From contig QQUL01000260.1 in assembly GCA_008501565.1 (NCBI GenBank), positions 1 to 25,492 of the forward strand: DNA of 25,492 nucleotides, in the 5' to 3' direction. Positions 8,898 through 17,643 of the stretch are shown here, one piece after another. Positions within the stretch are counted from its first letter, which is position 1. Each line of letters starts with the position of its first letter. A program made the position numbers and the translations under genes. Under the pieces are notes generated by a model that was not told the DNA's origin, did not search any database, and saw only the letters and a program-made list of their open reading frames with translations. The stretch comes from Armatimonadota bacterium. Its GTDB lineage: Bacteria > Actinomycetota > Acidimicrobiia > Spongiisociales > UBA5794.

Positions 8898-9512
8898 CTA
8901 CATCCCGTCGAGAATCTCCTTGCGCTTGCGCTCGTACTCTTCCTCTGAGACCAGTCCTTCATCGCGCAGGGCTGCAAGTTTGCGGATCGCTTCAGCGCCG
9001 TCATCTTTCGGACGCTTGACGCCACCACCCGCCGCAAGATCCATCGAACGCGCTTCACGAGTCTTGTAGAGAATCGCCTGGAATGTGTCCGGGTGCGGGA
9101 TGTTGTCGAAGTCGCTCTGTCCGGTCTCCCCCGCCGACTCGACCAGGAGATCCCCCGCCCCGAGGATCCGTTCGAACACCGACTGGGAAAAGTTGACGTT
9201 TGCGATGCCCTCAAGGGGGATTTCGATTCCACGCTGGGCGATGAGGCCGCGGCGCGTGATCAATCGCTCTGTGGTGAGCACGTAGCGGGTGAACCACCAA
9301 TCGACGAGTGGCCTGACCACGAACCACACGAGAACGATGACCAGAGCGGCAACCTTGAACCAGAAGCCAGCATCAAACCAGTATGCGAGCAGCCCGAAGA
9401 CGACAAGTGCGCCGACCCCCCACAAGGCGGGAACGAACAGCAGTTTCCAGTGTGGGCGAAACGAAGTGACGATCGATTCGCCTTCGGTGAGTGCATCTTC
9501 GGGCCAAGGCAT
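8898..9512 (-). CDS. Membrane protein with bacterial PH domain (bPH_2) and C-terminal SHOCT domain
   Basis: FRPHWK start, two TM helices, YVLTTERLITRRGLI...IPLEGIANV...ERILGAGDLLVESAGE (bPH_2), and LAALRDEGLVSEEEYERKRKEIL (SHOCT). Confidence 0.9.
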   Translation of the reverse strand: MPWPEDALTEGESIVTSFRPHWKLLFVPALWGVGALVVFGLLAYWFDAGFWFKVAALVIVLVWFVVRPLVDWWFTRYVLTTERLITRRGLIAQRGIEIPLEGIANVNFSQSVFERILGAGDLLVESAGETGQSDFDNIPHPDTFQAILYKTREARSMDLAAGGGVKRPKDDGAEAIRKLAALRDEGLVSEEEYERKRKEILDGM

Positions 9513-9519
9513 GGGAGAG

Positions 9520-9638
9520 AGCTTACAGCTTTCGGCTTTCAGCTCACAGCTTCAGAGCAGGGAAACCGAACAGTGAACCACGACAACCATGGGGACGAAA
9601 CGACCCATGCTGAAAGCTGAAAGCTGAGAGCTGAAAGC
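9520..9638. repeat. Inverted pair of heptamer tandem arrays, (AGCTTTC)n at 9520-9558 and (GCTGAAA)n at 9609-9638
   Basis: agcttac-agctttc-ggctttc-agctcac-agcttca and gctgaaa-gctgaaa-gctgaga-gctgaaa-gc; reverse-complementary, same family as 3102-3206. Confidence 0.9.
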
Positions 9639-9661
9639 AACGAGCGAAGCGAGTCCACGCG

Positions 9662-9700
9662 AGAAACCCCAAGGAAGCCGGAGCCCCCTTGGGGTGTTCT
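9662..9700 (-). terminator. 3' terminal hairpin / intrinsic terminator of candidate ncRNA A
   Basis: Minus strand ACCCCAAGG-GG-GC-UCCG-GC-UU-CCUUGGGGU followed by UUCUC. Confidence 0.75.
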
Positions 9701-10024
9701 CAGTGCCAGCCCTTGCAGTCTTTCGACCTCCGGTCTGGCGCCCCGCCGGTGTTGCCACCTGCGGTGCGGTCGATGCGAACCGAGGCTCGCACCTGTACCT
9801 TCCGGTGACCCTCGCCGACCGAAGTCTGCGTGAGTAGGGCCGAAGCCCTGCGCCCGAGAGCGCTACCTTCCGGTGTTGGCTGGTCCGTCGCCTCCCCTTG
9901 CGGTTCGGTTCGGTTTCCCGCCCGTTCCCATCCGTTGCCGGTTGGGAACCCCGCTGATTGACGGTCCCCGGCTTGCGCCGGTTGCGTTCGAGCGGTCCGG
10001 TTTGGGTTTCCCCTCTCCGGTTCC
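9662..10024 (-). ncRNA. Candidate highly structured ncRNA A (~360 nt), family unassigned
   Basis: On the minus strand about 12 hairpins carry stable tetraloops: GGG-GAAA-CCC, CCGGC-GCAA-GCCGG, CCG-GCAA-CGG, CGG-GAAA-CCG, CC-GCAA-GG, ACC-GGAA-GGU (twice), AGGGC-UUCG-GCCCU, GAC-UUCG-GUC, UGCGAGC-CUCG-GUUCGCA, GGUG-GCAA-CACC and GUC-GAAA-GAC. It is bounded by a promoter and a terminator and has no credible ORF. Confidence 0.75.
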
Positions 10025-10027
10025 AGA

Positions 10028-10107
10028 ACAATGCCATGAGTCGTGCACCAATTCAAGCCAGATCGCTTGTTGGTTTTCGCGAGTGACGAGTAGTTTTCGC
10101 GAGGTGC
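10028..10107 (-). promoter_or_regulatory. Promoter of ncRNA A with upstream GCGAAAAC direct repeat
   Basis: -35 TTGAAT (10056-10051), 17-nt spacer, -10 CATTGT (10033-10028); GCGAAAAC at 10100-10093 and 10080-10073 (20-bp period). Confidence 0.7.
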
Positions 10108-10120
10108 GCAAAGGACAACC

Positions 10121-10262
10121 GATTACAGATTTCAGATCACGGACAGGACACCGTCGAACTCGCGGCACCCCGATTCCATTATCCAATATCGAGGTTCGTC
10201 TTGGTTTCGCTTCCGGAGTCTGAATCCAAAATCCGTAATCCGTAATCCGAGATCCCAGATCC
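10121..10262. repeat. Inverted pair of heptamer tandem arrays, (GATTACA)n at 10121-10146 and (GTAATCC)n at 10221-10262
   Basis: gattaca-gatttca-gatcacg-gacagga and tgaatcc-aaaatcc-gtaatcc-gtaatcc-gagatcc-cagatcc; a second heptamer family, lying between the two candidate ncRNAs. Confidence 0.85.
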
Positions 10263-10313
10263 AACAACAAACCCCAAGGAAGCTGTGGCCGAAGCCGTAG
10301 CCCCCTCGGGGTT
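10262..10313 (-). terminator. 3' terminal hairpin / intrinsic terminator of candidate ncRNA B
   Basis: Minus strand AACCCCGAGG-GGGCUAC-GGC-UUCG-GCC-ACAGCUU-CCUUGGGGUU followed by UGUUGUU; the stem is nearly identical in sequence to that of ncRNA A. Confidence 0.75.
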
Positions 10314-10542
10314 CGTTGCCCTGGATGCCCGACGGTCGCCCGCCCGGTTCCCAGGAGTGTCCTTTCGGCTGCCAGCTAGGCCGTCACGTCCGATTGGACT
10401 GATCTCTCGAAGGCTGGGCTCCCTCTTGAGATCGCTGCCTCTGCCGAAGCAGAAGCCCGGCCCCGGTTTCCCGGGTGGGTCAGCCGAAGCCGATCCCTGC
10501 CGCACTTTCCAGGTTCACCTCAAGGGTTCACCTCTCAAGCAC
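10262..10542 (-). ncRNA. Candidate structured ncRNA B (~275 nt), family unassigned
   Basis: Minus-strand hairpins UCGGC-UUCG-GCUGA, CCCGG-GAAA-CCGGG, UCUGC-UUCG-GCAGA, GAUCUC...GAGAUC, GUCC-AAUC-GGAC, CC-GAAA-GG, CGG-GCGA-CCG and AGG-UGAA-CC (twice). The 5' GUGCUUGA can pair with UCGGGCAU just before the terminator. It is bounded by a promoter and a terminator. Confidence 0.72.
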
Positions 10543-10547
10543 AAGCG

Positions 10548-10628
10548 AACCTAGAGGGGATCTCTGCGGGTCGCAACCGCGATCTCTGGTTGGTTTTCGC
10601 GTAATAGCAGGAGTTTTCGCGGAGGTGC
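10548..10628 (-). promoter_or_regulatory. Promoter of ncRNA B with upstream GCGAAAAC direct repeat
   Basis: -35 TTGCGA (10576-10571), 17-nt spacer, -10 TAGGTT (10553-10548); GCGAAAAC at 10620-10613 and 10600-10593, with the same spacing to the -35 as in promoter A. Confidence 0.72.
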
Positions 10629-10689
10629 TGAGAGCTGCCGTTGATGACCTCGCGAACACCGCAGCGTTCTTGAGGTCGGAATCCGAAAG

Positions 10690-10711
10690 TGTCACACGGT
10701 GGCGGTATGGT
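10690..10711 (+). promoter_or_regulatory. PafBC/RecA-NDp-like DNA-damage promoter (TGTCAC-N10-TATGGT), leaderless start
   Basis: TGTCAC 10690-10695, 10 nt, TATGGT 10706-10711; the ATG begins 7 nt after the -10 (10718). One mismatch to TGTCRG. Confidence 0.6.
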
Positions 10712-10717
10712 CATGCC

Positions 10718-11614
10718 ATGACCTCCGATACCCACGAACGAACAACCCTCACGACCCTCTCACCATCGCGGGCGAGCGATTTCAAGCAGTGCCCACAGAT
10801 GTACAAGTTCAAGTCGATCGACCGTATCCCGACGGAGCCAACGATCCATCAGGCACGGGGCACGGCGGCGCATCTGGCTCTCGAACGGCTCTTTGAACAG
10901 CCGAGGGCGCAGCGAACCCCCGAGGCTCTGTACCGCCTCTTCAGGGATGCATGGGCAGAACTCAAGAAGACGGAATACCCAGACCTGTTCGATTCTGTCG
11001 AGGACGAGCGAGCATGGGGAATCGAAAGCCTCGGGCTGCTTGCGGGATACTTCTCGATCGAGGACCCAACCTCCTTTGAGCCCGAAGCGCTGGAAATGGA
11101 CCTCACCGTCGCTATCGATGACATGACCATCCGAGGCATTCTCGATCGGATGGAACGCATCACGACAACCGCGCCCGACGGCACCGAATCCGAACTCCTC
11201 GTCATCACCGACTACAAGACGGGCAAGGCACCGCCTGAGCGATATGCATCCCAGGCCTTCTTTGCCCTCAAGATCTACGCATTGTTGATTCGCACGACGC
11301 AAGGCATCACACCCGATCGCGTCCGGTTGTTGTATCTCAACGGACCAACCGAGTACACGCTCGACATCACCGACAGCCAACTCGACGCGATGCATCAGCA
11401 GCTCACGGCGTTGTGGCAGGCAATCAACAAGGCGATCCGCACGGATACGTGGCCGACGAGTCAGTCAGTACTCTGCGACTGGTGCGACTTCAAGGACACC
11501 GTGTGCCCGGCATTCAATACCGCTGCTGAGATAGCAGTGAACCGCGCAGCGATTGACGCTGCAGCAGCCGCGAAGATCGCTCGACCAACGTCAGATTCTG
11601 TCAGTGGTACCTGA
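10718..11614 (+). CDS. Stand-alone RecB-family PD-(D/E)XK nuclease with 4-Cys Fe-S staple (resembles the mycobacterial Rv2119 type)
   Basis: LSPSRASDFKQCP, GTAAHLALE, RGILDRME, ITDYKTG and CDWCDFKDTVC; 298 aa from ATG 10718. Confidence 0.88.
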   Translation: MTSDTHERTTLTTLSPSRASDFKQCPQMYKFKSIDRIPTEPTIHQARGTAAHLALERLFEQPRAQRTPEALYRLFRDAWAELKKTEYPDLFDSVEDERAWGIESLGLLAGYFSIEDPTSFEPEALEMDLTVAIDDMTIRGILDRMERITTTAPDGTESELLVITDYKTGKAPPERYASQAFFALKIYALLIRTTQGITPDRVRLLYLNGPTEYTLDITDSQLDAMHQQLTALWQAINKAIRTDTWPTSQSVLCDWCDFKDTVCPAFNTAAEIAVNRAAIDAAAAAKIARPTSDSVSGT

Positions 11615-11620
11615 TACGTT
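11599..11620 (+). promoter_or_regulatory. PafBC/RecA-NDp-type promoter (TGTCAGTG-N8-TACGTT), leaderless start of adnA
   Basis: Matches the core actinobacterial TGTCRGTG-N8-TANNNT consensus; the ATG at 11627 begins 7 nt after the -10. It overlaps the 3' end of the upstream nuclease gene. Confidence 0.72.
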
Positions 11621-11626
11621 GCCTTG

Positions 11627-14587
11627 ATGGAAACGATCGACGTAGCAGAAACACGGATCGACCCATCTGAGTGGGACGCCCACATCGCTCCGCCCGGATA
11701 TGCGCAAATGGTCGTTGGGGGGCCGGGCACCGGAAAGACAGAATTCCTCTGCCGTCGTGTGGTGGCTGCGATCAACGACGGCTGCGATCCGGCATCGATC
11801 GCAGTTCTCACCTTCTCCCGCCGCTCGGTCAACGACGTCCGGACCCGGCTGTTTTCTGCAATCGGGTCGGCGTCGTATCGGGTGCAGGTCGCGACATACC
11901 ACTCGCTGGCGAACCGGCTGGTCGAAGCCCATCACGCTGCCCTCGGTTGGGCAGCTGCACCAACGGTGCTCGCAGGTCCCGAACATGAACGATTCGTCCT
12001 GTCGATCCTTGAGCAGGAAGACCCCAACAACTGGCGAGCCCCGTATCGACCAATCGTCAAAACACCAGCGATGGCATCGGAGGTCACCGACTTCATTCTT
12101 CGGTTCCACGAACAGACGATGACGATCGCCGATCTGGAACGTTCATCCGTGCCCGAGTGGGAGGGGCTGGCCGGGTTTCTTCGACGCTACGACGAGGAAC
12201 TCACCGCAACGGGTCGCATCGACTATGGCCGATTGCTGAACGAGGCCGTGCTGGTACTCGAAACGAACCCCGGCATCGTCGCGAGTTACTCCCATGTCTT
12301 CGCAGACGAGTATCAGGACACGTCCCACGCCCAGGCACGGCTGCTCTTCGGGCTCGCACAGCACTCGAAATCACTCACGGTCGCCGGGGATCCGTACCAG
12401 TCGATCTATTCGTTCCGTGGAACCGATCTCGACAACGTCCTCAACTTTCCCACCCACGCTGCCAGTCAACTTGGCACGAAAGCCGACCGGCTCGTCCTTA
12501 CGACCTCGTTCCGCGTTCCCGAGCAAATCCTTGAGGCAGCCGTCAACGTCACCGGCCGTGCACTTCCGGGTGCCGCCGGAAAGGTCAAGAGCATTCGCAC
12601 CCGTGGCTCCGTCGCGACACACGTGTTCGACAACCCCGACGCCGAAAGCGAGTGGATCGCAAGCGACATCGAGCGCCTCCACCTCGTCGACGGCATCGCG
12701 CTCTCCCGTATTGCGGTGTTCACCCGCTCGGGTGGAAGCTTTCACCATCGGGTGGCAGCATCCCTCGACCGGCGATCGCTCCCGCACACCCTCACCCTTG
12801 AACAACTCGAAGATCAGCCGGTGGTGCGGTTCGTCCATGATCTCGTTGCCGTCGCAGGATCCGACGAGAGCATCGTCGACCGGCCAGACGTCACGGACAC
12901 CATGCGAAGCATCCTGTTGGGGCCGTTCATGGCGGCAGCCCCAGCGACCGTGAACGCCGTCGTCAGGCGAGTGAACGATGGAGCGGAGTGGTCGACGGAG
13001 ATCGCTGAACGCATCCCACATGGGCGCGCAATCGCGTCGCTCCTCAACGACCACGCCTGGGCAACGGAGATGCCGGCCGAACAGGGACTTTGGCACCTGT
13101 GGAAGTCGCTCCCCCCACTCCACGGAATCGCGGTTGACGACGACAGAATCCCGGATCGGAGGGCGTGGTCTGCGTTCGCCCAGTCTGTGACCCGATTCGG
13201 TTCGCGCGCCCCGCACGCGACACTGCGCGACCAGCAGATCCTCTCGGCAACATCCGACATAGAGGCCGATCCCCTCTTCAGTTTCCGAGCCGGGCCGGCT
13301 GCAGGCGTGGCAATCGCCACTCTGCACGCTGCAAAGGGCACCGAGTACGACGCGGTGTACATAGCTCATGCTGTTGAGGGTTTGTTGCCCGATCTTCGGA
13401 CGAAGGACTCGCTGCTCAAGACTCGGCTGCTGAACCCTCAGCTACCCGAAGACCCAAGCGCGTATGTGCAGTTTCGCCTGAGTGAGGAGCGTCGCCTTGC
13501 ATACACGGCGATGACCCGGGCGACCGACCGCGTCGTGTGGACCGCGACCGTTGTCGACAACCCATCCGAGCAGATCGAACCGAGCCGCTTCCTTCGCCAG
13601 ATCGGTGAGCCGATTCGACCGGTCGGTGTCGATCGACCGCTGACACGTCGCGGCTACGAAGCTGCTCTCCGGCGGACAATGCACGATCCCCTCGCTCTTG
13701 ACGTTGAGCGGCTTGCCGCGATGATCATTCTCGCCGAGGGACCGGATCACGGTTTCGACAGTCCGACCGACCGCTATGGCGTAGCCGTCGAAGGCACCGA
13801 TCAAGGCTTTGTCCCGTCCGATCATCGGCTTTCCCCAAGCCAGGCGAACACCTATGACCAATGTCCACGCAGGTTTGCGTTTGACAGATTTGCGACTCGA
13901 TTGCAGACGTCAACGTTCAACATGGAACTCGGAACCCTCATCCACAAGGTGCTCGAGCTTGCAGAAGCGGAAACCATCGAGTCCGGTCGTGAACGAAGCA
14001 CCTTGGCGAGGGCATTGGAGATTCTGGAGAGCCTTTGGGACGAGTACGACTTCGGCTCTGCTCCGGTCGCTTCGTCGTGGCACCGCAGAGCCGTGTCAAT
14101 CCTTGAGCATCAGTATCAGAAGTGGCCGGCGTCCGGTCCTCCTGTGCGGGCAGAGGTCTCGCTGTCACTCCAACTCGACGGAACGAACTGGAAAGGGACC
14201 GTCGACCGGATCGAACGGATCGGGGACGCGTTGAAGATCGTCGACTACAAGACCTCGAAGTCGGTGCCGACAGTCGCGGAGGCGGCTGCATCCCTGCAAC
14301 TCGGGTTCTATGTCCTTGCGACGGCTGCCGATCCCGAGTTGGCAACCATCGGAACGGTCCGCGGAGCCGAGTTCTGGTTTCCTGCGCCCGAACCAAGCAA
14401 GGACGCCATCAAGACTCGATCGTTTGACATGACGAACCTTGACGCAGTCCGCGAGCGACTCGAAACGATCGCACACGCCGTCCACGACGAAGACTTCCCG
14501 GCGACCCCGAACAGTGACTGCCATCGCTGTGATTTCCTGTCCGTTTGCCCTGCACAGAAAGAGGGACGGGAGGCGTTTGCGAGATGA
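11627..14587 (+). CDS. adnA: AdnA-like UvrD/SF1A helicase fused to a RecB-type nuclease with Fe-S staple
   Basis: GGPGTGKT, DEYQD, GDPYQSIYSFRG, TTSFR, TLHAAKGTEY, YTAMTRA; nuclease LSPSQANTYDQCP, GTVDRIE, IVDYKTS, CHRCDFLSVC. It is the first of two tandem helicase-nucleases, as in the actinobacterial adnAB pair. Confidence 0.85.
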   Translation: METIDVAETRIDPSEWDAHIAPPGYAQMVVGGPGTGKTEFLCRRVVAAINDGCDPASIAVLTFSRRSVNDVRTRLFSAIGSASYRVQVATYHSLANRLVEAHHAALGWAAAPTVLAGPEHERFVLSILEQEDPNNWRAPYRPIVKTPAMASEVTDFILRFHEQTMTIADLERSSVPEWEGLAGFLRRYDEELTATGRIDYGRLLNEAVLVLETNPGIVASYSHVFADEYQDTSHAQARLLFGLAQHSKSLTVAGDPYQSIYSFRGTDLDNVLNFPTHAASQLGTKADRLVLTTSFRVPEQILEAAVNVTGRALPGAAGKVKSIRTRGSVATHVFDNPDAESEWIASDIERLHLVDGIALSRIAVFTRSGGSFHHRVAASLDRRSLPHTLTLEQLEDQPVVRFVHDLVAVAGSDESIVDRPDVTDTMRSILLGPFMAAAPATVNAVVRRVNDGAEWSTEIAERIPHGRAIASLLNDHAWATEMPAEQGLWHLWKSLPPLHGIAVDDDRIPDRRAWSAFAQSVTRFGSRAPHATLRDQQILSATSDIEADPLFSFRAGPAAGVAIATLHAAKGTEYDAVYIAHAVEGLLPDLRTKDSLLKTRLLNPQLPEDPSAYVQFRLSEERRLAYTAMTRATDRVVWTATVVDNPSEQIEPSRFLRQIGEPIRPVGVDRPLTRRGYEAALRRTMHDPLALDVERLAAMIILAEGPDHGFDSPTDRYGVAVEGTDQGFVPSDHRLSPSQANTYDQCPRRFAFDRFATRLQTSTFNMELGTLIHKVLELAEAETIESGRERSTLARALEILESLWDEYDFGSAPVASSWHRRAVSILEHQYQKWPASGPPVRAEVSLSLQLDGTNWKGTVDRIERIGDALKIVDYKTSKSVPTVAEAAASLQLGFYVLATAADPELATIGTVRGAEFWFPAPEPSKDAIKTRSFDMTNLDAVRERLETIAHAVHDEDFPATPNSDCHRCDFLSVCPAQKEGREAFAR

Positions 14588-17500
14588 CCCTTGTCCCGAC
14601 CAGCGAACAACACGAGATCATCGCCTATCCCAAGCGGCACGTCCGGGTCGCTGCCGGTGCCGGGACCGGAAAGACCACAACCATCGTCGAACGCCTTGGA
14701 GCGTTCGTTGAGGGTGGAACATCGCCGACGCGGGCACTTGGCATCACATTCACGGTGAAAGCAGCCGACGAGCTGAGGAATCGGCTCAGAGAGCGTCTGG
14801 CGTCCGAAACCGACAGCGAAGAGGTCGAAGTTGCCACCTATCACGGATTTGCGACGTCGATCCTCGACGAGTTCGGTCCGTTGGTCGGGTTTGAACCCTC
14901 GTCGCTGCTGCTTGACGACGGCCATCGATCCGAACTCGGACAGCTTGTCCTCAGATCGACACCATCCAATCTGGATCTCACCGCCATGGATGCACGGGTT
15001 GCAGACCTCCTCGATCTCAATGACGCCCTTGACCGTCACCTGCTGTCAACCCAACAGCTCATCGATGGCGCCCCCGCTCACGGCGACGACCGGACCATGG
15101 AGACGTGGGAAAAACGTATCGATTTGGCGACCGTGGCAGCCACGTACCGATCAGAGAAGGAGCGGCTCGGTCTCATCGAGTTCTCCGACCTGATCGCCAA
15201 GGCCGTGGAGGTGGTGACCTCGTACCCCGATATCGCAGCCGAACTTGCTGCACGCTATGACGTCGTGTTGCTTGACGAGTACCAAGACACCGACCCTGCT
15301 CAACGGATTCTCCTCACAGCCATCTTCGGCCCATCCGCCGCGGTAACAGCCGTCGGCGATTCCGACCAGACGATCTACGAGTGGCGTGGTGCGTCCCTTG
15401 ACAACTTCGATGCGTTCCCGGAGCACTTTCCACGCAGCGATGGCGAACCGACGGAAACACTCCCGTTGAGCCTGAACCGTCGCTCCGACCGACTCATCAT
15501 CGATCTTGCCAACACCATCAAAGCTGAGCTGCCGTCGATTGAGGGCTCTGAACCACTTGTCCCCCGCCCCGAGGCAGGCGACGGATCCCTGGTAGTTGCG
15601 TGGTTTGGCTCCGAACGTGAGGAAGCGGGCTGGATAGCCGAAGACATCCTGCGTCGACACGACGACGGCACCGCTTTCAGCGACACGGCCATCCTGGTGC
15701 GGAAACGTGCCTGGATCCCCTTGCTGGTTGCCGCGCTGCGTGAATTCGATATCCCGACGTCGGTCAGTGACCCTGGCACCTTGCTCCAGATTCCGGAGGT
15801 CGCAGATGTCCTGGCGTGGCTACGGATCGTGTCGAATCCCGATGCCGAGCCGGCACTGCTCCGAATTCTCATGGGAGGTCAATACCGGTTGGGATTGGCC
15901 GACCTCAACGCTCTCAAGGTGCACGCCGACACCATCGACGCCGATTCGATCATGGCATCGGTGATGACACCATCACAGGTCGACGGTCTCAGCCAGACGA
16001 CTGCTTCACAGCTCACTCGCTTCGCGGCGATCCATGAGGAGTTGATGCGGTACGCACAGGCAAACACAGTCGCCAATACGATCAATCAGATCATCACGAC
16101 GATCGGATTCTGGGACGAAGCGGCAGCGCTGCGTCCAGGCGAGGCGACGACGGCACGACTCAACATTGCCCGGTTCGTCAATGTGGCCAACGGGTGGCGA
16201 CCCATCGAAGGGCGACCCACGGTCAGCCGGTTCCTTCGCTACATCGATGCGTTGAACGAATCAGGGAGAGACGAAGCCCTCACCCCTCCCACAGCATCCG
16301 TCGTCGACGCGGTGGAACTCACCACCGTCCACGGGGCAAAGGGCCTCGAGTGGGGAACCGTCTATCTCCCCGGTCTTCAGGCGGATGGCTTCCCGATGTC
16401 TGCAAGGCGCCATGACGATCCCGACAGGCACGCCATGTTGCTTCCGTACGAACTCAGGCTCGACGCCGAGCACCTGTCAGAGCTCGCTGCAACCTCAGGG
16501 AACAGCCGAAAAGAACACCTCACTGAAAGAAACACGCAGAGCGAGCACCGGCTTGCGTATGTCGCCGTCACGCGCGCAAAGCACACGATCACGATGTCGG
16601 GTCACGTGTGGCAGGATCACCTCAAACGTCCGAAGAAGCCCTCGCCCTACCTGCTGATGGCACGGGACGTCCCGGGTGCCACGATTGGACCATGGGTCGA
16701 CGAACCGGGCGAACCACCAACGATTGCCCCGTTCTCCGACAGCGACACGGTTCCCGATCCGCTTTTCGGCCATGACGTGGGAACTGCCTTCCGCAAGATC
16801 ATCGCCGACCCGACCACCGTTGCCGCGGATTACCCAGAATTGGTCGATGCGGTGTCTGAGCGAACCCGTCAGCTCACGATTGAGATCGGAGATCTTTCAG
16901 AACCGACAGCCGATCCCACGCCGAAGCCCTTTTCGACTGCTGTGACGAACCTTGTCGCTCTTGCTCAGTGCCCTCTGAAGTTCAAGTGGGTGCACCACGA
17001 CAAACTCCCACGACGTCCGTCGAAAGCTGCCGTCCGAGGGACCGAGTTCCATCGAAAGGTCGAGCTCCACAACCTCGGAGTGATCTCCCTCGACGACGCT
17101 CTACCCGCCAGCTACGACGCCGTGGAGACTGACGAAGCGTTCGTCGACGAGGACTGGACGCCTTCGGATCCTTGGAGCGTCTTCGAAGCATCACGCTTCG
17201 CACACATGAGGGCCCGCTTCACCGAGGCACCGTTTGAATTCGCGATCGGATCGGGATCCATTCGAGGCAAAATCGATGCCATCTATGAACCATCACCCGG
17301 GATCTGGGAAATCGTTGACTACAAATCGGGACGACCCTCCGCAGATCCAGCCCGAATGGTCCAGCTCAAGGCGTATGCGGTTGCGGTCGCTGACGGTGCC
17401 GTGTCATCGGAGACACCCGAGGCGATGAGCGTTTCATTTGCCTACTTCGGCGGTACCGAAGCCGAAGAGATTTCCGAAGCCGTCGACGATCAATGGATTG

Positions 17501-17643
17501 CCGAGGCGAAGATCGAGATCGCCCGTCTGGTCGACATCGGCGCCGAGGGACCGTGGACCGCAACGCCATCACCCGCGTGCCGCTTCTGTGACTTCCTCGT
17601 CCACTGCGACGCAGGCAAGGCTTTTCTGACGTCTGACGTCTGA
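14584..17643 (+). CDS. adnB: AdnB-like UvrD/SF1A helicase fused to a RecB-type nuclease
   Basis: AGAGTGKT, DEYQD, GDSDQTIYEWRG, LNRRS, TVHGAKGLEW, YVAVTRAK; nuclease AQCP, GKIDAIY, IVDYKSG, QLKAYA, CRFCDFLVHC. ATGA overlap with the adnA stop. Confidence 0.87.
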   Translation: MTLVPTSEQHEIIAYPKRHVRVAAGAGTGKTTTIVERLGAFVEGGTSPTRALGITFTVKAADELRNRLRERLASETDSEEVEVATYHGFATSILDEFGPLVGFEPSSLLLDDGHRSELGQLVLRSTPSNLDLTAMDARVADLLDLNDALDRHLLSTQQLIDGAPAHGDDRTMETWEKRIDLATVAATYRSEKERLGLIEFSDLIAKAVEVVTSYPDIAAELAARYDVVLLDEYQDTDPAQRILLTAIFGPSAAVTAVGDSDQTIYEWRGASLDNFDAFPEHFPRSDGEPTETLPLSLNRRSDRLIIDLANTIKAELPSIEGSEPLVPRPEAGDGSLVVAWFGSEREEAGWIAEDILRRHDDGTAFSDTAILVRKRAWIPLLVAALREFDIPTSVSDPGTLLQIPEVADVLAWLRIVSNPDAEPALLRILMGGQYRLGLADLNALKVHADTIDADSIMASVMTPSQVDGLSQTTASQLTRFAAIHEELMRYAQANTVANTINQIITTIGFWDEAAALRPGEATTARLNIARFVNVANGWRPIEGRPTVSRFLRYIDALNESGRDEALTPPTASVVDAVELTTVHGAKGLEWGTVYLPGLQADGFPMSARRHDDPDRHAMLLPYELRLDAEHLSELAATSGNSRKEHLTERNTQSEHRLAYVAVTRAKHTITMSGHVWQDHLKRPKKPSPYLLMARDVPGATIGPWVDEPGEPPTIAPFSDSDTVPDPLFGHDVGTAFRKIIADPTTVAADYPELVDAVSERTRQLTIEIGDLSEPTADPTPKPFSTAVTNLVALAQCPLKFKWVHHDKLPRRPSKAAVRGTEFHRKVELHNLGVISLDDALPASYDAVETDEAFVDEDWTPSDPWSVFEASRFAHMRARFTEAPFEFAIGSGSIRGKIDAIYEPSPGIWEIVDYKSGRPSADPARMVQLKAYAVAVADGAVSSETPEAMSVSFAYFGGTEAEEISEAVDDQWIAEAKIEIARLVDIGAEGPWTATPSPACRFCDFLVHCDAGKAFLTSDV

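What the first reader, a model, noticed from the sequence alone, without database searches (positions are those of the whole stretch)
10262..10542. Candidate ncRNA B: ~275 nt closed multibranch RNA with its own promoter
Seen: TTGCGA-N17-TAGGTT predicts a start near G10542. The first 8 nt (GUGCUUGA) are complementary to UCGGGCAU just upstream of the terminator and would close a multibranch domain. Inside are three UUCG hairpins (one capping the terminator), three GNRA hairpins and a tandem GAGGUGAACC repeat (10525-10534, 10512-10521). The size is similar to RNAP-binding RNAs such as Ms1 or 6S and to large SRP RNA, but the SRP, tmRNA and RNase P signature motifs are absent. Any function is inference.
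Basis: partly seen in the sequence, partly recalled or inferred. Interest (0 to 1): 0.74.

Follow-up and report, generated by a model that had tools for sequence, protein, structure and literature searches.

The report
Uncatalogued structured small RNA gene
The flagged stretch is a real gene for a roughly 280-base non-coding RNA that folds into a chain of stable hairpins; it belongs to an uncatalogued family in uncultured Acidimicrobiia, carries the same upstream control element as the replication genes dnaA and nrdJ, and has no known function.

Summary
RNA B (10262-10542, minus strand) is a genuine non-coding RNA gene. Homologues occur in all 10 same-genus genomes searched and in about half of the family. 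The 5' domain shows strong compensatory base changes (35 of 42 pairs). There is no conserved reading frame and no Rfam match; 6S was not found, and SRP, RNase P and tmRNA lie elsewhere.

The proposed 5'-3' closing helix fails in homologues. The 5' end pairs locally, so the RNA is a chain of hairpins, not a closed multibranch. The tandem repeat is a duplication private to this genome.

B is the upstream unit of a tandem pair. The order is nuclease-adnAB (divergent), then B, then A, then a bPH_2 gene, and this order is kept across the whole taxonomic order. Each unit has a CGCGAAAAC-N11-CGCGAAAAC doublet and a conserved terminator hairpin. Degenerate doublets also precede dnaA and nrdJ.

Function is inferred: most likely a trans-acting protein-binding RNA, with RNA polymerase the leading candidate partner. 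Transcription of B itself is not shown.

The scan has already noted this cassette and followed up sister RNA A in this same genome. It has no record of it on other DNA.

The parts
10613..10621 (-). Upstream operator-like motif, distal copy (CGCGAAAAC)
   Evidence: the 9-mer occurs 5 times in the window against 0.38 expected; the doublet with 20-nt spacing occurs only before RNA A and RNA B in this genome. It is conserved before the homologous units.
10593..10601 (-). Upstream operator-like motif, proximal copy (CGCGAAAAC), 16 nt upstream of the -35 hexamer
10571..10576 (-). -35 hexamer TTGCGA
   Evidence: Homologues have TTGCGA, TTGACC or TTGCAC at the same distance.
10548..10553 (-). -10 hexamer TAGGTT, 17-nt spacer from the -35
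   Evidence: Homologues have TAGGTT, TAGTTT, TACCTT or TACATT.
10262..10542 (-). RNA B, predicted transcript of about 280 nt (5' end inferred from the promoter, 3' end from the terminator)
   Evidence: The ends are not mapped experimentally.
10502..10542 (-). P1, the 5' hairpin. The first 6 nt, GUGCUU, pair locally with AAGUGC. It contains the window-specific duplicated GAGGUGAACC (10512-10534).
   Evidence: MFE. P1 pairs covary (helices 1-2, 95-100% paired). The duplication is absent from relatives.
10459..10501 (-). P2, a three-way junction with a UUCG hairpin and a GGGAAACC hairpin
   Evidence: helices 3-6, all with double compensatory changes. It is deleted in G004 and G005.
10437..10456 (-). 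P3, a UUCG-capped hairpin
   Evidence: helix 7.
10401..10433 (-). P4, a hairpin with the 7-nt apical loop AGCCCAG (10414-10420), which is invariant in the 12-sequence alignment A2
   Evidence: helix 8: 8 of 11 pairs with double changes. The loop is invariant in the 12 sequences of A2.
10359..10399 (-). P5, an irregular hairpin. Its sequence is almost invariant within the genus; changes are confined to loops.
   Evidence: It is also present on RNA-library contigs of relatives.
10320..10355 (-). P6, a GCGA-capped hairpin; variable, and absent in G002
10264..10319 (-). Terminator hairpin (CCCCGAGGGGGC...GGCUUCGGCC...CUUCCUUGGGG) followed by a U-rich tail
   Evidence: This hairpin sequence occurs only at RNA A and RNA B in the genome and is conserved across families.
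9665..10101 (-). Sister unit RNA A with its own doublet (10073-10101), promoter and matching terminator (context, not the finding itself)
   Evidence: An RNA-library contig of the same sample covers 9705-9924.

Best explanation
RNA B is an independently transcribed non-coding RNA gene from a family that no database catalogues.

Anatomy: a sigma-A-type promoter lies behind two CGCGAAAAC motifs spaced 20 bp apart. It drives a transcript of about 280 nt that ends at a long, sequence-conserved intrinsic terminator. The RNA folds as a chain of local hairpins (P1 to P6 plus the terminator), not as a closed multibranch. P4, with its invariant AGCCCAG loop, and P5 are the constrained modules. P2-P3 and the insert hairpins come and go between species.

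Context: B is the upstream member of an order-wide tandem pair (B, then A). Both share the doublet and the terminator with each other, and the doublet with dnaA and nrdJ. An unidentified DNA-binding factor therefore probably co-regulates these RNAs with replication and dNTP-supply genes.

Mechanism (inferred): B acts in trans as a protein-binding RNA through P4/P5. RNA polymerase is the single most likely partner, which would make B a functional analogue of 6S, Ms1 or CoRP. These genomes show no 6S match and no Ms1-type locus.

What is shown: the gene anatomy, conservation, structure, non-coding nature and shared motif. What is inferred: transcription of B itself, the regulator, and the partner.
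For: Stability: MFE z = -5.9.

Conservation:
- Homologues in 10 of 10 same-genus genomes searched.
- The covariance model of the 5' domain gives one hit per genome in g1 (4 of 4) and g8 (3 of 3), and hits 9 of 19 family genomes.

Structure:
- 95.6% of cells paired, against 33-53% when partners are slid.
- 35 of 42 pairs carry double compensatory changes, and 0 of 500 shuffles reach this.
- RNAalifold finds 25 of 42 and 25 of 75 pairs with compensatory changes.

Non-coding: there is no conserved ORF, and most indels are not multiples of three.

Promoter and locus:
- The promoter hexamers and the doublet are conserved in register.
- In the genome, the doublet allowing one mismatch per 9-mer and the terminator hairpin occur only at A and B.
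- Synteny nuclease-adnAB | RNA1 | RNA2 | bPH_2 holds across seven families of the order.
- Degenerate doublets lie upstream of dnaA and nrdJ in this genome and upstream of dnaA in small-genome class members.

Known families excluded:
- No Rfam match for B or its homologues.
- No 6S in five genus genomes.
- No CsrA or Hfq.
- The HAD-IB hydrolase (Ms1 marker) locus has no long intergenic region.

Expression (weak): RNA-library contigs from two sediment studies carry the P4/P5 core of relatives at depth 5-86.

Literature: Actinobacteria lacking 6S and Ms1 can have other RNAP-binding RNAs, such as CoRP (PMC11077062).
Against: - Transcription of B itself is not demonstrated, and its ends are inferred from sequence only.
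- No open-promoter-like bubble or long closing stem, the feature that 6S and Ms1 use to bind RNAP.
- Length varies from 199 to 579 nt through gain and loss of hairpins. That is unusual for RNAs constrained by an RNAP footprint.
- The B-specific fold is detected in only part of one family.
- The A3 alignment was fitted to the model, which inflates its pair counts.
- No protein partner and no regulator has been identified.
Confidence: 0.6

Rival explanations
1. B is a base-pairing regulatory RNA. Its invariant C-rich apical loop of P4 (AGCCCAG) is the seed and pairs with G-rich sites in mRNAs without a chaperone, as actinobacterial 6C RNA and firmicute RoxS/RsaE do. The other hairpins serve only stability.
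For: The P4 loop is invariant in the 12 sequences of alignment A2 while its stem covaries. No Hfq gene was found, which fits chaperone-independent loop pairing (my own knowledge of 6C). Nearly all other nucleotides are locked in helices.
Against: - At 280 nt with seven structured modules, B is far larger than known seed-loop sRNAs.
- P5, a 41-nt module, is also nearly invariant in the genus, including its internal loops, and a seed model does not explain that.
- No target was predicted or tested.
- A 7-nt seed is too short to find targets reliably in 2 Mb.
- Rfam's 6C model gives no hit.
Confidence: 0.15
2. B is a true, divergent member of the Ms1 or 6S family, homologous and not merely analogous, that profile searches miss.
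For: It is actinobacterial and of Ms1-like size, with a sigma-A promoter plus terminator, conserved synteny and fast sequence drift. Ms1 homologues are known to escape sequence and Rfam searches (PMC9130861). No 6S was found in these genomes.
Against: - The defining long hairpin with a central bubble and a 5'-3' stem is absent from the consensus.
- The Ms1 flanking genes (HAD-IB hydrolase, oxidoreductase) are not here. The HAD-IB gene lies on another contig in a gene-dense stretch.
- No Rfam hit even at E up to 10.
Confidence: 0.05
3. The RNA product has little function of its own. Instead, the act of strong transcription from the doublet-controlled promoter, divergent from the nuclease-adnAB operon, matters through promoter interference or supercoiling. 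Alternatively, B is a leader or processing precursor for RNA A.
For: The divergent arrangement with the nuclease-adnAB operon is conserved across the order. The RNA bodies differ greatly between families, whereas the promoter and terminator are conserved.
Against: - Within the genus and family, the RNA body is under clear purifying and compensatory selection: P4 and P5 are invariant and 35 of 42 pairs covary.
- B has its own strong terminator, and A has its own complete promoter and doublet.
Confidence: 0.07
4. It is not a gene: a chance GC-rich structure, a small-protein gene, or a repeat or mobile-element remnant.
For: High-GC genomes give long spurious ORFs (108 aa at 10179-10505) and stable folds. 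Direct expression of B is not shown.
Against: z = -5.9 against dinucleotide shuffles. B is a single-copy, syntenic homologue in every genus genome searched. It shows compensatory changes and frame-breaking indels with no conserved ORF. The promoter and terminator are conserved.
Confidence: 0.02

Closest known systems
Ms1 RNA (Mycobacterium, Streptomyces; PMC4191392, PMC9130861)
   Same: Actinobacterial, about 300 nt, single copy, with a sigma-A-type promoter and an intrinsic terminator. The locus is conserved by synteny while the sequence diverges quickly. It occurs in a lineage with no detectable 6S.
   Different: Ms1 is a long hairpin with a central bubble plus two short end hairpins, and it sits next to a HAD-IB hydrolase. 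B is a chain of local hairpins with no closing stem and sits between nuclease-adnAB and RNA A/bPH_2. RNAP binding is untested.
6S RNA (RF00013)
   Same: A structured stand-alone RNA of comparable size. It is a possible functional analogue, since these genomes show no 6S match.
   Different: No match to the 6S model in the window or in five genus genomes. No rod with a central bubble. The length varies three-fold among homologues.
CoRP RNA of Corynebacterium (PMC11077062)
   Same: It shows that Actinobacteria lacking 6S and Ms1 can carry a different abundant structured RNAP-binding RNA. CoRP works as two pieces (318 + 198 nt), loosely comparable with the A + B pair.
   Different: CoRP is one 516-nt transcript cleaved in two and is flanked by tRNA genes. 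A and B are two genes, each with its own promoter and terminator. No sequence or structure comparison with CoRP was possible here.
Tandem or paralogous transcription-factor-controlled sRNA pairs (OmrA/OmrB, PrrF1/PrrF2, RsmY/RsmZ, CsrB/CsrC; my own knowledge)
   Same: Two neighbouring or paralogous RNA genes, each with the same upstream regulator site and its own terminator. The ends are conserved and the bodies diverge. Numbers of hairpin modules vary.
   Different: Those RNAs are 80-150-nt Hfq-dependent base-pairers, or CsrA sponges with repeated GGA loops. Here neither an Hfq nor a CsrA gene was found, there is no repeated GGA-loop motif, and the RNAs are 200-580 nt long.
6C RNA (actinobacterial C-rich-loop sRNA; my own knowledge)
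   Same: A conserved C-rich apical loop on a covarying stem, in a phylum without Hfq.
   Different: 6C is under 100 nt with two C-rich loops. B has a single such loop among seven modules, and Rfam gives no 6C hit.

Membership tests
6S RNA (RF00013) | Match to the Rfam covariance model | tested here: not met
   No hit in the window at gathering score or at E up to 10 over 9400-11000. None in nine homologous loci. None in five genus genomes at E up to 1, while the control genomes ring.
6S RNA (RF00013) | Rod-like fold: 5'-3' closing stem, large central bubble, terminal loop | tested here: not met
   The consensus is a chain of local hairpins. The proposed closing helix is not conserved. The scan for long-range covarying helices found only promiscuous G/C-run pairings.
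6S RNA (RF00013) | Binds sigma-A holoenzyme and templates pRNA | not testable with these tools
   Needs RIP-seq, pull-down or pRNA sequencing.
Ms1 RNA | [quoted passage not shown] | tested here: not met
Ms1 RNA | Synteny with a HAD-IB hydrolase and an oxidoreductase (PMC9130861) | tested here: not met
   B is flanked by the PD-(D/E)XK nuclease-adnAB operon and by RNA A/bPH_2. The genome's HAD-IB gene is on contig C315 in a gene-dense stretch.
Ms1 RNA | Match to the Rfam Ms1 model | tested here: not met
   No family overlaps B at E up to 10. The model is known to reach only close relatives of mycobacteria (PMC9130861), so this is a weak test.
Ms1 RNA | Binds RNAP core; highly abundant in stationary phase | not testable with these tools
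   Only assembled contigs of RNA libraries were available.
CsrB/RsmZ-type protein sponge | Many GGA motifs in hairpin loops, and a CsrA/RsmA protein in the genome | tested here: not met
   The loops are UUCG, GAAA, AGCCCAG, CUA and GCGA. No CsrA in five genus genomes.
Hfq-dependent base-pairing sRNA | Hfq present; accessible seed plus U-rich 3' end | tested here: not met
   No Hfq in five genus genomes.
SRP RNA, RNase P RNA, tmRNA | Match to the Rfam model, being the only copy in the genome | tested here: not met
   No hit in the window. SRP RNA is at G000:C115:3079-3177, and at other loci in G005 and G007. RNase P is elsewhere in G005. tmRNA is elsewhere in G005 and G007.
New family 'Acidimicrobiia tandem hairpin-chain RNAs' (working definition) | CGCGAAAAC doublet, sigma-A promoter, structured body, conserved CCCCGAGRGGG...CCUCGGGGUUU terminator, position between nuclease-adnAB and bPH_2 | tested here: met

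The most novel reading that the evidence does not exclude
A and B together are the Acidimicrobiia counterpart of 6S, Ms1 or CoRP: a fourth, structurally different class of abundant RNAP-associating RNA, built as hairpin chains without an open-promoter mimic. Their synthesis is wired by a dedicated operator to the same regulator that controls dnaA and nrdJ, so that free RNA polymerase and replication and dNTP supply are set by one switch. A variant not excluded is that they bind the adjacent nuclease/AdnAB machinery instead.
Probability: 0.2. Interest if true: 0.8.

Novelty: new variant of a known kind. Interest (0 to 1): 0.55.

Why it matters
Acidimicrobiia are abundant, mostly uncultured Actinomycetota with no described regulatory RNAs. 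This work defines a conserved two-gene RNA locus with covariation-supported structure, a recognisable promoter/operator signature and a signature terminator, so it can now be annotated in hundreds of MAGs. Three things make it directly testable. First, the lineage shows no 6S or Ms1. Second, the literature proposes that every bacterium has some abundant RNAP-associating RNA. Third, the operator is shared with dnaA and nrdJ, which points to an unknown regulator linking stable-RNA synthesis to replication.

Tried and rejected
- Rfam at gathering and at permissive E-values found nothing relevant, on the window and on 25 homologous loci. The weak hits (mir-80, CRISPR-DR19, sok, H19) lie outside B or are chance.
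- A scan of A1 for any long-range covarying helix found only G/C-run pairings with the terminator arms.
- A pattern search for the P4 15-mer with one mismatch across the order gave as many matches for the reversed control pattern, so it was uninformative.
- Reading the doublet as a DnaA box is rejected. Canonical TTnTCCACA boxes cluster next to dnaA, and the doublet is a separate site about 380 nt upstream.
- The coding reading is rejected.
- Ms1 synteny is not present.
- Literature searches for the motif and for Acidimicrobiia 6S found nothing relevant.
- RNA libraries of the source sample (X18, X19; about 3 million letters each, kept as contigs) have a contig over RNA A (9705-9924) but none over B. 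No conclusion is drawn from the missing cover.
- The search of earlier findings by sequence and by words found no record of this family on other DNA.
- The complex-prediction and protein-structure tools were not used, because the object is an RNA.
- Genome G038 is flagged unpublished. No claim in this report rests on it; it appears only among genomes counted in tallies.

Full report
OBSERVATION. Read on the minus strand, the stretch holds:
- TTGCGA (10576-10571), a 17-nt spacer, and TAGGTT (10553-10548), with G10542 six bases after the -10 hexamer.
- A long GC-rich hairpin capped by UUCG (10319-10264), followed by UUUGUUGUUG.
- UUCG loops at 10488-10485 and 10448-10445.
- GAAA and GCGA tetraloops.
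- Two copies of GAGGUGAACC (10534-10525 and 10521-10512).

The 281-nt RNA folds to -151.8 kcal/mol, against -119.3 +/- 5.5 for dinucleotide shuffles (z = -5.9). Of the three claimed GNRA hairpins, only two are hairpin loops in the consensus. The third (CCGAAAGG) lies in an internal loop of P5 and is GACA in three relatives.

ORGANISM AND LOCUS. The window comes from an uncultured Acidimicrobiia MAG. Record titles of the nearest public contigs say so, and near-identical DNA is held in bioreactor and electrolysis-cell metagenomes. The 1.2-kb gap between a bPH_2/SHOCT membrane-protein gene (8898-9512, minus) and a stand-alone PD-(D/E)XK nuclease gene (10718-11614, plus) holds two tandem minus-strand units; the nuclease gene is followed by AdnA/AdnB-like helicase-nucleases. 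These are the flagged RNA B and, downstream of it, RNA A (about 9665-10020). Each unit is preceded by CGCGAAAAC-N11-CGCGAAAAC and ends in a near-identical terminator hairpin. In the 2.14-Mb assembly (85% complete) the doublet, even allowing one mismatch per 9-mer, and the terminator hairpin occur only at these two places.

HOMOLOGUES AND STRUCTURE.
- BLAST finds B in all 10 same-genus genomes searched, and finds fragments in other genera.
- Aligning ten genus members (A1) shows invariant blocks: GAGGGAGCCCAGCC, and a stretch of about 45 nt at 10357-10401. Between them lie variable hairpins.
- Two genomes lack P2-P3 and have a 199-nt RNA. Others carry extra hairpins, up to 579 nt including tandem hairpin modules.
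- RNAalifold gives only local helices.
- A 12-sequence alignment of the 5' domain that includes other genera (A2) has 25 of 42 pairs with compensatory double changes.
- The covariance model R1 built from A2 finds exactly one strong hit per genome: 4 of 4 g1 genomes, 3 of 3 g8 genomes and 9 of 19 family genomes. There are only weak hits in two other families.
- On the 21 model-aligned matches, 95.6% of cells pair, against 33-53% with slid partners. 35 of 42 pairs show double changes, and no shuffle in 500 reaches that. This alignment is fitted to the model, so the counts lean towards it; the MAFFT-based counts agree.
- Weak R1 hits also fall in the A-position unit of two genomes. This suggests that the two units are ancient paralogues.

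THE CLOSING HELIX FAILS. It drops to 3-4 of 8 pairs in the more distant genus members, and its partner is deleted in G002. A free duplex search between the 5' end and the pre-terminator region is no better than shuffled 5' ends in any genome. Instead, the 5' end pairs locally (GUGCUU with AAGUGC) in P1, which covaries. The RNA is therefore a chain of hairpins: P1 10542-10502, P2 10501-10459, P3 10456-10437, P4 10433-10401, P5 10399-10359, P6 10355-10320 and the terminator 10319-10264. The GAGGUGAACC repeat is a duplication private to this genome.

NOT CODING, NOT A KNOWN RNA. ORFs in the homologues differ in frame and position, and most indels are not multiples of three. Rfam 15 gives nothing for B at E up to 10, and nothing for homologous loci. 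The 6S model finds nothing in five genus genomes. SRP RNA lies elsewhere in this genome, and RNase P and tmRNA lie elsewhere in genus relatives. The Ms1 marker gene, a HAD-IB hydrolase, sits on another contig in a gene-dense stretch without a long spacer. CsrA and Hfq were not found.

REGULATION.
- The promoter hexamers and the doublet keep their register in all homologues.
- The exact doublet occurs once or twice per genome in 36 of 201 class genomes. The reversed control pattern matched only once, in one genome.
- Across seven families of the order, the arrangement adnA, nuclease (divergent), doublet-RNA1, doublet-RNA2, bPH_2 is kept, even though the RNA bodies are unalignable between families.
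- Degenerate doublets with 19-20-nt spacing lie upstream of dnaA (contig C95) and of class II ribonucleotide reductase nrdJ (C229) in this genome. Exact ones lie upstream of dnaA in the 1-Mb genomes of another family, and upstream of nrdJ in two family members.
- Canonical DnaA boxes sit elsewhere next to dnaA, so the doublet is a different site.
- The inference is that an unidentified factor co-regulates both RNAs with replication and dNTP-supply genes.

EXPRESSION. Only assembled contigs were available. RNA libraries of the source sample hold a 221-nt contig over RNA A at word depth 419-504. Sediment metatranscriptomes from two other studies hold 221-386-nt contigs that carry the P4/P5 core of B-like RNAs from relatives, at depth 5-86. 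This is weak support that the family is transcribed. B itself is not shown to be transcribed.

MECHANISM. What is shown: the gene anatomy, selection on structure, two sequence-invariant modules (the P4 loop and P5), and a regulon-like motif. What is inferred: the mode of action.
- Almost every base is locked in GC-rich helices, and the invariant parts include internal loops. There is no Hfq or CsrA. The lineage lacks a 6S match and an Ms1-type locus. Work on Corynebacterium shows that such Actinobacteria can carry other RNAP-binding RNAs, and it proposes that each species has one (PMC11077062).
- I therefore favour a trans-acting protein-binding RNA, at about 0.5 overall, with RNA polymerase the single most likely partner at about 0.2.
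- Against RNAP: there is no bubble or rod, and the length is very variable.
- A seed-loop base-pairing mechanism through AGCCCAG (about 0.15) and a mainly transcription-level role (about 0.07) remain open.

COMPARISON AND NOVELTY. B works most like the actinobacterial structured RNAs Ms1 and CoRP, and it is organised like tandem factor-controlled sRNA pairs (OmrA/B, PrrF1/2, RsmY/Z). It fails the testable defining features of each, so it is not filed under any of them. It is a new family with a new locus architecture inside the known kind 'stand-alone structured bacterial regulatory RNA'.

CAVEATS. All genomes are MAGs. Relatives are not statistically independent. The transcript ends are predicted. 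The function is inference.

Noticed in passing
window 9665-10101 (minus): This is sister RNA A, with the same doublet (10073-10101), promoter type and terminator. A 221-nt contig from RNA libraries of the source sample covers 9705-9924 at word depth 419-504.
   Followed up: partly
G000:C95:1435-1463 (L111) and G000:C229:2134-2161 (L112): Degenerate CGCGAAA doublets with 19-20-nt spacing lie upstream of dnaA and of class II ribonucleotide reductase nrdJ. Exact doublets lie upstream of dnaA in 1-Mb class members (L037-L048) and upstream of nrdJ in L058 and L059.
   Followed up: partly
after unit terminators, e.g. window 9655-9668; L064, L065, L057: The terminator tail GGGGTTTCTCGCGT is conserved at 33 of about 53 unit terminators, mostly A-position units. 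It resembles an inverted operator half-site (GTTT[C]TCGCG compared with the reverse complement of CGCGAAAAC). RNA B of the window lacks it.
   Followed up: partly
window 10121-10262; L007:~1780-1860; L005, L013, L035: Tandem 7-nt arrays follow the B-position terminator in several genera, with different unit sequences: GGATTAC-like here, CGTCTAC x11, TCAGCTT x4, CTCCAGT x4 and CGGTAGT x4. The 7-nt period is kept but the sequence is not.
   Followed up: partly
L030:704-1281: The B homologue of this MAG is 579 nt long and contains at least five tandem hairpin modules of about 50 nt each, capped by GGGGCUUCGGCC. This shows growth of the RNA by module duplication.
   Followed up: no
L003:1508-1705 and L004:1470-1667: The two closest relatives (G005, G004) lack the whole P2-P3 domain, leaving a 199-nt RNA in which the 5' GUGCUC pairs directly with GAGCAC. 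P2-P3 is therefore dispensable.
   Followed up: partly
G000:C28:~100-220: A cluster of four operator-like TCGCGAA(A/T) sites lies at a contig end. The neighbouring gene is not known.
   Followed up: no
window 10718-17643 (plus): A stand-alone PD-(D/E)XK nuclease followed by AdnA/AdnB-like helicase-nucleases is transcribed divergently from RNA B. This pairing with the RNA locus is kept across seven families of the order.
   Followed up: partly
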